DNA of 32,000 bases from Promethearchaeota archaeon (GTDB lineage: Archaea > Asgardarchaeota > Lokiarchaeia > Sigyniarchaeales > SOKP01). The notes under the pieces were generated by a model. It ran no database searches and was not told the origin of the DNA. It was given only the letters and a program-made list of their open reading frames with translations. Below are positions 19,482 to 26,495 of the stretch, piece after piece (positions within the stretch are counted from its first letter, which is position 1; every line of letters begins with the position of its first letter). Made by a program: the position numbers and the translations under genes. The stretch lies in assembly GCA_030606485.1 (NCBI GenBank), contig JAUWGH010000002.1, forward strand, positions 180,001 through 212,000, given 5' to 3'.

Positions 19482-20993
19482 TTAGGAAATATATCGAATA
19501 ATTAAATCCTGAGTTTTTTCTAAAAGTAAAGGTAAGAACTCATCAATTTTTTCATTTTTTTCTTCATTATCCACGAAAAAAAGAAAGAACATTGGATTAT
19601 TTTCAATTATTGTCTTTTTTATTATTATTATATCATCAGGACTTATTTTATAAATTGCTTCATTTATATCCGTTTCTCTAAACCTTTCAAAAATCTTATA
19701 TAAATTAGTTATTTGTGGTGCCAAAATTTCAAAAACACTCTTAACAGAGGCTTTTAAAGGTTGTGATTCAGAGAAAATATATTTTATTTCACCAAGTAAT
19801 GAAGGACTATAAAAGTCAGCAAGTACTAGCCCTTGTTCATTCATTAACATTGAGATTTTTATGCCAATATCTTCAGAGAATCTACTTAAATTAAAGTTTA
19901 TTAATTTCCTGTTAGGAGATAATAATGATAATCCATGAGAATATGCTCTCAATATCGTATATACTGAAAAAATACTTGTTAAGAAATATTCAATATTTAA
20001 TTGTTTTTCTTGATTTATCTCTTCAATTTTTTTGACAATTTGATAAACTACATCCTTTATTTCAGTTGTTTCTTTTATATCTGGATCAACTTTGGAAATT
20101 ATGATTAACACTGGAATTTCTTGTTCATATTTTTTAATATTTTCGAGAATTTGGTTAAAAAATTGAAGACTTTCATCGATTCTTTTGGGATCTCTAATAT
20201 CTATGAAGTAATAAATTAAATCCGCATCATACAAATAGATTGGAGCCCTATTAAGAAATTTATCTCTTGATTTTTCTTGGCCAGATAAGTCCCACGTGAA
20301 AACATGACTGCCGAATGTTTCAAGATGTTTAATTTCTGCTCCTAATGTAGGTTTTAAACCTAATAATTTGGAATATTTTCGATCAATAGTTAATAAAAAG
20401 GATGTTTTTCCGGAATTATCTAGTCCAGTAAGAATAATTTTTAACTTTCTTGAAGAAGTTAGAGGTAAAGTGGGGTTTTTCTCAATTTCTAGCAAATTAT
20501 TGGTTAATTTTAAAAAAGTTGGTTCTAATATCTTGTTATCTACATAACCATTATTAATTTTTTCGTCAATTTCGGCTACAACTTCCAATATAAATGGTTT
20601 TAGCCTCTCAATATTATTATAAATAAAACTTCTTTTATTTTCATCAATTAGTATTGATAATGTTGAGGCAATTGGTCTCTCTAAAAAGCTGGTTTTTATA
20701 AAATGAAAAAACACTAAACTGGAAATCCGGAAATCAGGAAAGGGTATAATTCCGAAATAATTATAATCGGAAATTTCATTATCAGTAAATAATAAAGAAA
20801 GACTTTTAATCGAAATTTGATAAATATCTCTTAAACTCTGCTTAAATGCCCCACCTTCATTTTGGTTAGTATCACATTCATCTAAATTGGATAAGATTGA
20901 TTCAGGAAATATATATTTAGGCTCAGGTCCACGGTCACCATAAACAGAAAGTACAACTCCTTTTATACAACTTTCTTCGGGTATCTCTCTCAT
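19482..20993 (-). CDS. Longin(uDENN-like)-Rag-type GTPase-roadblock fusion, paralog B
   Basis: N-terminal VVLSVYGDRGPEP and YFGIIPFPD. G1 GLDNSGKTS, G2 PTLG, G3 WDLSGQ, G4 SKVD, G5 TSIF. C-terminal LLSPN..MLMNEQGLVLA roadblock-like domain. Confidence 0.85.
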   Translation of the reverse strand: MREIPEESCIKGVVLSVYGDRGPEPKYIFPESILSNLDECDTNQNEGGAFKQSLRDIYQISIKSLSLLFTDNEISDYNYFGIIPFPDFRISSLVFFHFIKTSFLERPIASTLSILIDENKRSFIYNNIERLKPFILEVVAEIDEKINNGYVDNKILEPTFLKLTNNLLEIEKNPTLPLTSSRKLKIILTGLDNSGKTSFLLTIDRKYSKLLGLKPTLGAEIKHLETFGSHVFTWDLSGQEKSRDKFLNRAPIYLYDADLIYYFIDIRDPKRIDESLQFFNQILENIKKYEQEIPVLIIISKVDPDIKETTEIKDVVYQIVKKIEEINQEKQLNIEYFLTSIFSVYTILRAYSHGLSLLSPNRKLINFNLSRFSEDIGIKISMLMNEQGLVLADFYSPSLLGEIKYIFSESQPLKASVKSVFEILAPQITNLYKIFERFRETDINEAIYKISPDDIIIIKKTIIENNPMFFLFFVDNEEKNEKIDEFLPLLLEKTQDLIIRYIS

Positions 20994-24431: not shown

Positions 24432-25376
24432 ATGCAATATCTAAAAACCGAAGAATTAGCTAAAAAAATTTTGTTTACAGGTTTAGACTTCGCAGGAAAG
24501 AGCTCAATTATTCTTGCTCTACAGAAAGAATTTTCAAAGATAGCTATACTCAAACCTACTCGAGGCGCAGAGAGGAGTGTATTCACATTTTTAGGATATG
24601 AATTTAGTACTTGGGACCTCGGAGGTCAGCAGGCTTACAGAATTAATTATTTGCGAAATCCGAGTAAATTTTTTGATAAGACTGAAATTGCAATTTATGT
24701 AATTGACATTCAAGATTCAGCACGCTTTGATGATGCAATTAGATATTTGAAGGATGTTATTAAGCAATTTAAAGAACTCGAAATTGCACCTCCAATCTAT
24801 ATTTTCTTCCATAAAACTGATCCAGCATTAATTAAAGAATCAAGGACAGATTTAAACAATTTAATATTAGATCTTACTGAAAAAATTAATAATACAATAG
24901 AATATGAGAAAATTAAATTTTATGAAACATCTATTTATGATTTATATTCTATTATAGAAGCTATTTCAGAAATTTTACTTAATCTTTATCCAAAATCCAA
25001 CCTTATTGATAAGACTCTTTTTGAATTTGGGAAAAAAATTGAGGCAGAAGGACTTATGATCTTAGATGATAATTCATTACTTGTTGGGAGGTATTATTCG
25101 AATGATGAAATTAGGCAGATTTTAAGTGCGAGTTCTCCATATTTCCTAACATTACACGATAGGTTCAATGAAGCAGACATTGAAAAATCATCAAAAAAAG
25201 AGGATAAAGGTATGGTTGTGCAAAGAATGGGGAAATATTTTATGTTTAATGAAATTAAATTCCGTTCTGATCCGGGGGGACGATATTATCTGTTGGTTGC
25301 GAAAAATACTCCTTGGTTCGATCCAAATTTAATAAATGAATTTGTTGAAATTTTCCAAGATATTTTTATAATTTAA
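24432..25376 (+). CDS. Rag/Gtr-type small GTPase with C-terminal roadblock-like domain
   Basis: G1 GLDFAGKSS, G2 PTRG, G3 WDLGGQ, G4 HKTD, G5 TSIYD, then LYP..LMILDDNSLLVG. Confidence 0.88.
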   Translation: MQYLKTEELAKKILFTGLDFAGKSSIILALQKEFSKIAILKPTRGAERSVFTFLGYEFSTWDLGGQQAYRINYLRNPSKFFDKTEIAIYVIDIQDSARFDDAIRYLKDVIKQFKELEIAPPIYIFFHKTDPALIKESRTDLNNLILDLTEKINNTIEYEKIKFYETSIYDLYSIIEAISEILLNLYPKSNLIDKTLFEFGKKIEAEGLMILDDNSLLVGRYYSNDEIRQILSASSPYFLTLHDRFNEADIEKSSKKEDKGMVVQRMGKYFMFNEIKFRSDPGGRYYLLVAKNTPWFDPNLINEFVEIFQDIFII

Positions 25377-25553: not shown

Positions 25554-26495
25554 TTGATTATATGCCCAAATTGTGGAAGCACCAACGAAAATAAGTCCCA
25601 ATATTGCCGAAAATGCGGTTCATCAATTTCGAATGTGTTTTCTCCACCAAAAGTAAAAATTCCGATCTTTAATTCTGTAAATAAAGAAATTATTGGGGAT
25701 AAACGAAAGAATAGAAATGATTTAAAATCCATTCAGAGAGATACTAAAGTACCTCTAAAACAAGTAGAGCAAAATAATATATGGACTCCAGATATTCCTG
25801 ATAATGAGAAACGTGATTTTAATCTCAAAGAAATACCAAAGATTTCAGAGATTGATGGACCTTCAATAAAAGAAGGAAGACCTACTTCAATATTACAAGA
25901 AATACCTCCACAACCCTTTTCACTTCAAAGTATTCCATTAACTTATAATAAAAAGCAATCTTCCCAAGTTCAAAATATACAATCTCCAAAAAGAGAAGAG
26001 ATATCTTCGGCAATGACGAATGCAATGCAAGCCCTTACAAAAAATCTTTCATCTAAAAAAAAGCCAATGAGAACTTTACCAGAATCTCTTAAAACTCAAC
26101 AGGAAATAAAATATGAGGAAATCAGCTCCAACAATTTGGATGAAATATTAAAAAATATATCAAGATTAGATAAGAATATAGAAGCTTCGGCAATTATTAA
26201 CCCTGATGGAGTGATATTATCTTCCGCACTTTCAGGAAGAGTAAATAACTCGTTGTTTGCCTCAATTGGAAAAACATTATCAGTATTAGGTAATGATATA
26301 GTTAATGCATTAAATACCGGTGCTTTAAAATCCGTTACAATTAATGGAACTCATGGAAAATTTAGTTTATCGCCAATAGTCAGTGATGTTCTTCTTTTAA
26401 TTTTAAGTGGTCCGAAAGTGAAGGCAGGAATCATACATTTAGCTGTTAGCTTATTTAAAAAGAAATTTAAATCATATACGGAAAAGAAAAAATAA
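25554..26495 (+). CDS. Zn-ribbon, low-complexity linker and roadblock/LAMTOR-like domain protein
   Basis: TTG start; CPNC...CRKC; P/Q/S/K-rich linker; C-terminal IEASAIINPDGVILSS...LKSVTINGTHG roadblock pattern. Confidence 0.85.
   Translation: MIICPNCGSTNENKSQYCRKCGSSISNVFSPPKVKIPIFNSVNKEIIGDKRKNRNDLKSIQRDTKVPLKQVEQNNIWTPDIPDNEKRDFNLKEIPKISEIDGPSIKEGRPTSILQEIPPQPFSLQSIPLTYNKKQSSQVQNIQSPKREEISSAMTNAMQALTKNLSSKKKPMRTLPESLKTQQEIKYEEISSNNLDEILKNISRLDKNIEASAIINPDGVILSSALSGRVNNSLFASIGKTLSVLGNDIVNALNTGALKSVTINGTHGKFSLSPIVSDVLLLILSGPKVKAGIIHLAVSLFKKKFKSYTEKKK

What the first reader, a model, noticed from the sequence alone, without database searches (positions are those of the whole stretch)
19482..20993. 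Paralogous longin-GTPase fusion that lacks the arginine-finger motif (catalytic/non-catalytic pair?)
Seen: same architecture and shared YFGI.PFPD and T..IL.DE blocks as 28112-29554, but the loop reads FHFIKTSFLERPIAS (20684-20676 encodes L-E-R). DxxARG is absent and the nearest Arg is displaced by 1-2 residues. Established: eukaryotic longin GAPs work as catalytic plus non-catalytic heterodimers (FLCN-FNIP, SMCR8-C9orf72, NPRL2-NPRL3), and Rags heterodimerise through their roadblock domains. Inference: paralogs A and B may form an asymmetric heterodimer reproducing both pairings at once.
Basis: partly seen in the sequence, partly recalled or inferred. Interest (0 to 1): 0.72.

Follow-up and report, generated by a model that had tools for sequence, protein, structure and literature searches.

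The report
Finger-less longin–Rag GTPase paralogue
This Asgard-archaeal gene encodes a Rag-like GTPase fused to a folliculin-type longin domain that has lost the catalytic arginine still kept by its neighbouring paralogue, so the two resemble the catalytic/non-catalytic pairs of eukaryotic longin GAPs, although their pairing has not been shown.

Summary
ORF 19482-20993(-) ("B", 503 aa) and ORF 28112-29554(+) ("A", 480 aa) are full-length paralogues (32% identity). Both have the order longin, Rag-type GTPase, roadblock. In 121 A-clade proteins the longin loop reads D-x-x-A-R-G, with Arg and Gly invariant. In 121 B-clade proteins that column is Arg in 2. The column of B's own Arg106 is Arg in 11, so Arg106 is not a displaced finger.

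Related longins outside the pair carry the R-G motif, so the finger was lost once, on the B stem. B keeps the GP motif, the fold and all GTPase motifs. Its longin domain evolves faster than A's (49% versus 66% identity across the same genomes).

A and B occur together in 38 of 44 sampled genomes of one order, inside a syntenic block. They were not found elsewhere in the phylum sample.

The heterodimer idea remains unproven. The complex prediction gave only weak support. One 99%-complete genome deleted B cleanly and kept A. The nearest solved relative is a homo-oligomer.

The architecture, including orthologues in the cultured strain MK-D1, is already published. The finger asymmetry was not found in the papers searched.

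The parts
19482..20993 (-). Gene B: longin-RagGTPase-roadblock protein, 503 aa, finger-less paralogue
   Evidence: (PF04670 Gtr1_RagA, 83.6 bits against cut-off 22)
20469..20975 (-). B longin domain (residues 7-175), beta-beta-alpha-beta-beta-beta-alpha-alpha
   Evidence: AF2 model. VIA match to the Lokiarchaeal longin 8yqg_B: Z 17.7, rmsd 2.5, 145 residues aligned. HHalign to the A longin: 99.7% probability.
20925..20930 (-). GP motif (G22-P23), invariant in the B clade
   Evidence: The motif is described for GAP longins in PMC12290439.
20838..20885 (-). B-clade-specific insertion between beta2 and alpha1 (residues 37-52, low pLDDT), followed by the conserved R55-D56
20673..20696 (-). beta4-beta5 loop KTSFLERP (residues 100-107), the place of the arginine finger, with no conserved Arg
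19920..20447 (-). B Rag-type GTPase domain (residues 183-358) with G1-G5 motifs intact
   Evidence: VIA matches spanning the GTPase and roadblock domains: 8yl2_A Z 27.3, RagC 6nzd_G Z 24.2.
19488..19913 (-). B C-terminal roadblock domain (residues 361-502)
28112..29554 (+). Gene A: paralogous longin-RagGTPase-roadblock protein, 480 aa, with the D-P-E-A-R-G finger motif at 28412-28429 (Arg105 codon 28424-28426)
24432..25376 (+). Rag-type GTPase-roadblock protein without a longin domain. It lies between B and A and is an orthologue-level match to LokiRagO (PDB 8YL2).
   Evidence: synteny
25554..26495 (+). Zn-ribbon plus roadblock/LC7 protein, always directly downstream of the GTPase-roadblock gene

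Best explanation
Shown: B is a conserved, intact Rag-type GTPase. All G1-G5 motifs and the switch-II Gln are kept. It sits between an N-terminal folliculin/SMCR8-family longin domain and a C-terminal roadblock domain. The longin domain keeps its fold and the GP motif. It lost the catalytic arginine once, on the stem of the B clade, before the two families of the order split. Since then it has evolved faster than A's longin. B therefore cannot act as an arginine-finger GAP in the way folliculin does.

Inferred: B is most likely the non-catalytic and/or regulated partner of the finger-bearing paralogue A. The two would pair through their roadblock domains, as RagA-RagC do, and through their longin domains, as SMCR8-C9orf72 or FLCN-FNIP do. 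The complex would then hold two GTPase domains and a single arginine finger. That asymmetry would let the two nucleotide pockets be set differently. Odds: about 0.9 for the shown part and about 0.4 for a stable A-B complex.
For: Finger status and ancestry: the finger is invariant in A and absent in B across 121 proteins of each clade. The same holds in the sister family f2. The Pfam Folliculin model matches 48/49 A longins at E <= 0.1 and 0/43 B longins. In the longin tree B is monophyletic (99/94), A lies on the sister side (95/81), and the outgroup longins and most longin-GTPase (L-G) proteins carry R-G. The loss is therefore derived.

B is still functional: the GP motif is invariant in both clades, as in SMCR8, C9orf72, FLCN and NPRL2 but not FNIP2 or NPRL3 (PMC12290439). 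The G motifs of B are conserved in 109-121 of 121 proteins. Over 9 shared genomes, domain identities are 66/66/67% for A (longin/GTPase/roadblock) and 49/63/55% for B.

Linkage with A: both genes occur in 38/44 genomes of the order. Synteny of B ... GTPase-roadblock gene, Zn-ribbon-roadblock gene ... A holds over 8 genera.

Predicted complex: complex prediction on A+B gave ipSAE 0.33 (median of three runs) against a best control of 0.00, a verdict of weak support. That mark was reached by 58 of 80 solved complexes and 2 of 110 mismatched pairs. Scores of 0.60 or under were reached by only 7 of those 80 solved complexes and by both mismatches that passed. The runs agree in at least 84% of contacts and the partner pLDDT is at least 73. 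Because Rag heterodimers are solved, the pass may reflect resemblance to known structures.
Against: Genome G138 (99% complete) keeps A and the whole syntenic block. It has only 717 bp with no B remnant where B should lie, so A can exist without B. A and B are not in one operon. They are 7 kb apart, in opposite orientation, with unrelated genes between them, and in family f2 they lie on different contigs. Co-occurrence and synteny are also shared by unrelated genes of the block. The closest solved relative, LokiRagO (8YL2), is titled a homo-tetramer. Tran et al. 2024 obtained AF2 homodimers for longin-containing GTPases of MK-D1. A+A and B+B were not tested here. Distance-matrix correlation does not single out A-B: r is 0.954, against 0.92-0.94 for unrelated neighbouring genes.
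Confidence: 0.42

Rival explanations
1. B works independently of A. It would be a homo-oligomeric longin-GTPase-roadblock protein whose longin domain has become a non-catalytic platform for dimerisation, effector or membrane-partner binding, or a GEF-like role, as in most longin and roadblock proteins. Co-occurrence with A would only reflect that both are old core genes of the order.
For: B was lost with A retained in G138. The genes are not in one operon. The homologous LokiRagO is a homo-tetramer, and the Lokiarchaeal longin 8YQG is a dimer, by their entry titles. AF2 homodimers for longin-containing GTPases of MK-D1 were reported in PMC10933270. B has clade-specific conserved residues (R55, D56, H97) and an insertion that suggest a new interface.
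Against: The GP motif, which PMC12290439 reports only in the longin subunits that form a GAP pocket, stays invariant in B. Complex prediction on A+B gave weak support, not none. All eukaryotic relatives work as heterodimers, which is established knowledge.
Confidence: 0.33
2. There is no stable heterodimer. B's GTPase domain would be a transient substrate of a finger supplied in trans, either by A or by the finger-bearing ~350-aa longin-GTPase (L-G) paralogues. B would then be a client GTPase that has given up self-regulation.
For: B keeps the catalytic Gln and all G motifs but has no finger. Tran et al. note that the MK-D1 longin GTPases lack the switch-I Arg and may need GAPs. Several finger-bearing longin proteins exist in these genomes.
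Against: No specific evidence links B to any of them. The own-genome longin-GTPase paralogue also lacks the Arg and reads YPGG.
Confidence: 0.15
3. B's longin domain is still a GAP and uses another basic residue, such as the clade-specific R55, the invariant R121, or a loop Lys, in place of the canonical finger.
For: R121 is invariant and R55 is at least 90% conserved in the B clade. A Lys or Arg occurs somewhere in the loop in 98/121 proteins.
Against: R121 has a K/R counterpart in A, so it is not a replacement. No loop position is conserved. The Folliculin profile signal is lost in all 43 B longins, and the domain evolves faster.
Confidence: 0.08

Closest known systems
Asgard longin-GTPase-roadblock (LGR) Rag-like GTPases of 'Ca. 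Prometheoarchaeum syntrophicum' MK-D1 (Tran et al. 2024, PMC10933270; WP_147663364.1 and WP_147663355.1)
   Same: The domain order and Rag-like GTPase core are the same. The G5 segment printed for WP_147663364.1 nearly matches the f2 B-like proteins, and that of WP_147663355.1 resembles the f2 A-like proteins. The cultured strain therefore very likely has both.
   Different: That paper treats them as architectures and models homodimers. The passages retrieved here do not mention the arginine finger, its loss in one paralogue, or an A+B pairing.
SMCR8-C9orf72 (CSW), FLCN-FNIP and NPRL2-NPRL3 (GATOR1) longin GAP heterodimers
   Same: The fold is the FLCN/FNIP-type longin. A's longin matches the Lst4 longin 4zy8_C at Z 13.1, rmsd 3.1, over 131 residues. 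The GP motif is present. One paralogue carries the loop Arg and one does not. B with GP but no Arg is most like C9orf72 (PMC12290439).
   Different: There is no DENN domain; the longin is instead fused to its presumed client-type GTPase and a roadblock domain. Heterodimerisation and GAP activity are untested. B shows no sequence-level match to Pfam Folliculin.
RagA/B-RagC/D and Gtr1-Gtr2 heterodimers
   Same: The GTPase plus C-terminal roadblock domains match RagC 6nzd_G at Z 24.2 and Gtr 8fw5_E at Z 23.1. Pfam Gtr1_RagA scores above its cut-off. There are two diverged paralogues per genome.
   Different: An N-terminal longin domain is added. The pairing is not shown. The nearest solved archaeal relative, LokiRagO 8YL2, is a homo-tetramer by its title.
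Lokiarchaeal Roadblock-Longin protein, longin domain (PDB 8YQG)
   Same: It is the best structural match of both longin domains: Z 17.7 for B and 18.2 for A. Its sequence also has a GP motif and no Arg in the aligned loop.
   Different: Its architecture differs: roadblock-longin with no GTPase. Sequence similarity is insignificant (E 0.76).

Membership tests
Rag/Gtr GTPase family (Pfam PF04670) | Profile score above the curated cut-off | tested here: met
   83.6 bits against cut-off 22 for B; 86.7 bits for A
Rag/Gtr GTPase family (Pfam PF04670) | Intact G1-G5 nucleotide-binding motifs and switch-II Gln | tested here: met
   In the B clade the key positions of GLDxSGKTS, PT, WDLGGQ, SKxD and TSIF are kept in 109-121 of 121 proteins
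Rag/Gtr GTPase family (Pfam PF04670) | C-terminal roadblock domain | tested here: met
   The AF2 model shows alpha-beta-beta-alpha-beta-beta-beta-alpha at residues 361-502. Full GTPase-plus-roadblock matches: RagC Z 24.2, LokiRagO Z 27.3.
Rag/Gtr GTPase family (Pfam PF04670) | Obligate heterodimer of two paralogues through the roadblock domains | tested here: inconclusive
   Complex prediction on A+B gave 0.33 against a best control of 0.00, weak support only. Homodimers were not tested.
FLCN/SMCR8-type GAP longin (Pfam PF11704 Folliculin) | Longin fold | tested here: met
   B residues 7-175 match 8yqg_B at Z 17.7. The homologous A longin matches the Lst4 longin at Z 13.1. HHalign A against B: 99.7%.
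FLCN/SMCR8-type GAP longin (Pfam PF11704 Folliculin) | GP motif before beta2 | tested here: met
   G22-P23 are invariant in 120 B-clade sequences
FLCN/SMCR8-type GAP longin (Pfam PF11704 Folliculin) | Catalytic arginine finger in the beta4-beta5 loop | tested here: not met
   The finger column is Arg in 2/121 B-clade proteins and 121/121 A-clade proteins
FLCN/SMCR8-type GAP longin (Pfam PF11704 Folliculin) | Sequence match to the family profile | tested here: not met
   0/43 B longins match at E <= 0.1. 48/49 A longins match, best E 5.8e-6; P0002 itself scores 20.8 bits against the cut-off of 23.3.
FLCN/SMCR8-type GAP longin (Pfam PF11704 Folliculin) | C-terminal DENN domain | tested here: not met
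   The longin is followed by a GTPase and a roadblock domain
Non-catalytic longin partner (C9orf72 / FNIP / NPRL3 type) | Lacks the finger and binds a finger-bearing longin paralogue | tested here: inconclusive
   The lack of the finger is shown. Binding has only weak support. B was lost with A kept in G138.
Asgard LGR architecture (Tran et al. 2024) | Longin, Rag-like GTPase and roadblock on one chain, in that order | tested here: met
   literature

The most novel reading that the evidence does not exclude
A and B form an asymmetric heterodimer. Paired roadblock domains, paired longin domains, two Rag-type GTPase domains and a single arginine finger would sit on just two polypeptides. It would be a prokaryotic, fused forerunner of both the Rag heterodimer and the catalytic/non-catalytic longin GAP pairs (SMCR8-C9orf72, FLCN-FNIP, NPRL2-NPRL3). 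The catalytic/non-catalytic division of labour would then have arisen in archaea before eukaryogenesis.
Probability: 0.35. Interest if true: 0.8.

Novelty: new variant of a known kind. Interest (0 to 1): 0.55.

Why it matters
All three eukaryotic longin GAPs for Rag and Arf GTPases are heterodimers with one catalytic and one non-catalytic longin. How that asymmetry arose is open. This work shows an archaeal order with two old paralogues of a folliculin-type longin fused to a Rag-type GTPase. One has an invariant finger. The other lost it once and was then kept for a long time under selection. Both orthologues appear to exist in the cultured strain MK-D1, so the question of whether asymmetric longin GAPs predate eukaryotes can be tested at the bench. 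If the two do not pair, the result is still a clear case of a GAP-type longin turned to a non-catalytic role inside a GTPase.

Tried and rejected
- **Arg106 as a displaced finger:** rejected. Its column is Arg in 11/121 proteins and differs even in 73% and 59% identical relatives.
- **Sequence searches of the longin domains against PDB:** tried with a single sequence and with profiles. No significant hit was found for A or B. The link to FLCN/FNIP rests on sub-threshold Pfam hits, motifs and structure.
- **Mirror-tree correlation of pairwise distances over 9 genomes:** A-B ranks first of 28 gene pairs (r 0.954). Unrelated neighbouring genes reach 0.92-0.94, so this is not informative.
- **RNA evidence:** no RNA holder was listed for the gene.
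- **Literature on PDB entries 8YL2, 8ZLA, 9M28 and 8YQG:** no paper was found in the library.
- **Position of the finger relative to the GTPase pocket:** model coordinates are not returned, so this position and those of R55 and R121 could not be measured.

Full report
**Observation.** The ORF at 19482-20993 on the minus strand encodes a 503-aa protein, B. It aligns end to end with the 480-aa product of 28112-29554(+), A, at 32% identity and E 7e-85. Both score well above the Pfam cut-off for Gtr1_RagA. Bases 20684-20676 do encode L104-E105-R106. A reads D-P-E-A-R-G where B reads K-T-S-F-L-E-R-P.

**Architecture.** AF2 models built on about 120-sequence alignments gave mean pLDDT 78 for B and 74 for A. 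Both show a longin-type domain (beta-beta-alpha-beta-beta-beta-alpha-alpha), a GTPase domain, and a roadblock-type domain (alpha-beta-beta-alpha-beta-beta-beta-alpha).
- The exhaustive structure search matched B residues 7-175 to the solved Lokiarchaeal longin domain 8yqg_B (Z 17.7, rmsd 2.5, 145 residues).
- B residues 183-498 matched LokiRagO 8yl2_A (Z 27.3), and residues 184-499 matched human RagC 6nzd_G (Z 24.2).
- A gave the same picture, and its longin also matched the longin of Lst4, the yeast FNIP orthologue (4zy8_C, Z 13.1, rmsd 3.1, 131 residues).
- The two longin domains are homologous by profile comparison (99.7%, E 3e-26).

**The finger difference is a property of two clades.** Searches returned more than 120 cluster representatives for each protein. 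B relatives are about 45% identical to B, and A relatives about 60% identical to A. Sources label them mostly Promethearchaeota.
- In the joint alignment the A clade has Arg 121/121, Gly 121/121 and Ala 118/121 in D-x-x-A-R-G.
- In the B clade the finger column is Arg in 2/121. The column of B's Arg106 is Arg in 11/121. No Arg occurs anywhere in the loop in 70/121. Arg106 is therefore not a shifted finger.
- The Pfam Folliculin model gives sub-threshold matches over the finger region in 48 of 49 A longins (best E 5.8e-6) and in none of 43 B longins.
- The GP motif is invariant in both clades. The 2025 Traffic paper reports this motif only in the pocket-forming longins SMCR8, C9orf72, FLCN and NPRL2, and in Asgard FLCN/SMCR8-type longins (PMC12290439).
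- B's GTPase motifs, including the switch-II Gln, are kept in 109-121 of 121 sequences. B is not a pseudo-GTPase.

**History.** A profile of the A longin found further relatives in the phylum sample. These include proteins of about 350 aa with a longin and a Rab-like GTPase, as well as stand-alone and other longin proteins in different families. They read R-R-G, K-R-G-G or A-R-G-G at the finger position. The one exception is the longin-GTPase (L-G) paralogue of this genome itself, which reads Y-P-G-G.
- In a maximum-likelihood tree of the longin domains rooted on the distant longins, the B clade, including the B-like genes of the sister family, is monophyletic (99/94). A and the remaining sequences form the other side (95/81).
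- The sister family's B-like proteins also lack the Arg, and its A-like proteins keep it. The finger is therefore ancestral and was lost once on the B stem.
- Over nine genomes that hold both genes, mean pairwise identity for longin/GTPase/roadblock is 66/66/67% in A and 49/63/55% in B. Constraint was relaxed, or changed, mainly in B's longin domain.

**Distribution and context.** In 201 sampled genomes of the phylum, full-length A and B were found only in the window's own order: 41 genomes of family f1, counting the window's own, and 3 of f2.
- Both genes are present in 38 of 44 genomes.
- A alone is found in four. In G049 and G109, A lies at a contig start. G138 is discussed below. G162 has a divergent A-like gene that keeps the finger.
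- B alone is found in G195, which is 81% complete. Neither is found in G077.
- Across eight genera the gene order is conserved: MtrH, B (opposite strand), AIR-synthase-like gene, SLOG gene, GTPase-roadblock gene, Zn-ribbon-roadblock gene, NERD gene (opposite strand), ATP-cone gene, A. Variable insertions occur within it.
- In family f2 the half of the block from B to the GTPase-roadblock gene is kept, and A lies on another contig.
- This linkage is real, but unrelated genes share it, so it is weak evidence for a joint function.

**Tests of the heterodimer idea.**
- That mark was reached by 58 of 80 solved complexes and 2 of 110 mismatched pairs. Scores of 0.60 or under were reached by only 7 of those 80 solved complexes and by both mismatches that passed.
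- The runs agree in at least 84% of contacts and the partner pLDDT is at least 73. Because Rag heterodimers are solved, the pass may come from resemblance.
- Against an obligate pair: G138 (99% complete) keeps the whole block and A. Between the AIR-synthase-like gene and MtrH it has only 717 bp, with no trace of B.
- The GTPase-roadblock gene between the two is an orthologue-level match (E 1e-82) to LokiRagO, deposited as a homo-tetramer.
- Tran et al. obtained AF2 homodimers for the longin-containing GTPases of MK-D1.
- Distance-matrix correlation ranks A-B first, but barely above unrelated neighbours.

**What is known already.** The longin-GTPase-roadblock (LGR) architecture was described for MK-D1 (PMC10933270). 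The G5 segments printed there for WP_147663364.1 and WP_147663355.1 match the B-like and A-like proteins of family f2. The accession numbers are nine apart, so the cultured strain very likely carries the pair in the same neighbourhood. Asgard longins with the GP motif and the finger were noted in 2025 (PMC12290439). In the papers searched I found no description of a conserved finger-less paralogue, its single origin, or the A/B pairing.

**Verdict.** B is a functional Rag-type GTPase whose folliculin-type longin has lost the catalytic arginine. The reading as the non-catalytic half of an A-B pair is the best single explanation, at about 0.4. It competes closely with an independent, homo-oligomeric role. 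I class it as a new variant of a known kind, of moderate interest, and testable with the proteins of a cultured organism.

Noticed in passing
window 24432-25376 (+): This Rag-type GTPase-roadblock protein is an orthologue-level match (E 1.2e-82, residues 4-308) to PDB 8YL2 'LokiRagO', deposited as a homo-tetrameric RagA-like GTPase. It lies between B and A in every genome of the family examined.
   Followed up: partly
window 25554-26495 (+); L007:152-1243: A Zn-ribbon plus roadblock/LC7 protein always follows the GTPase-roadblock gene on the same strand. In genome G162 its homologue sits 54 bp upstream of the divergent A-like LGR gene. It is a candidate MglB- or Ragulator-like partner of these GTPases.
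   Followed up: partly
L019:992-2050 (G000 contig C10, outside the window): The genome's ~350-aa protein with a longin and a Rab-like GTPase reads Y-P-G-G where its homologues in G141 read R-R-G-G and R-R-G-K. This is a second, independent loss of the longin arginine finger.
   Followed up: partly
window 28802-28804 (A residue 231): A of this genome has Glu in the G3 motif (W-E-L-G-G-Q), where 115 of 121 A-clade proteins have the canonical Asp.
   Followed up: no
window 27479-27916 (+): The ATP-cone ORF upstream of A is 145 aa here and 162 aa in G138 and G144. In most other genera a ~600-aa gene with the ATP-cone homology occupies this position, so this may be a shortened or split form.
   Followed up: no
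L022:56-1309 (G123) and L021:677-1438 (G020): Other families of the phylum carry finger-bearing (A-R-G-G, K-R-G-G) GP-motif longins fused to other C-terminal regions, giving proteins of 417 aa and 253 aa. They are possible folliculin-like proteins. Their C-terminal domains were not analysed.
   Followed up: no
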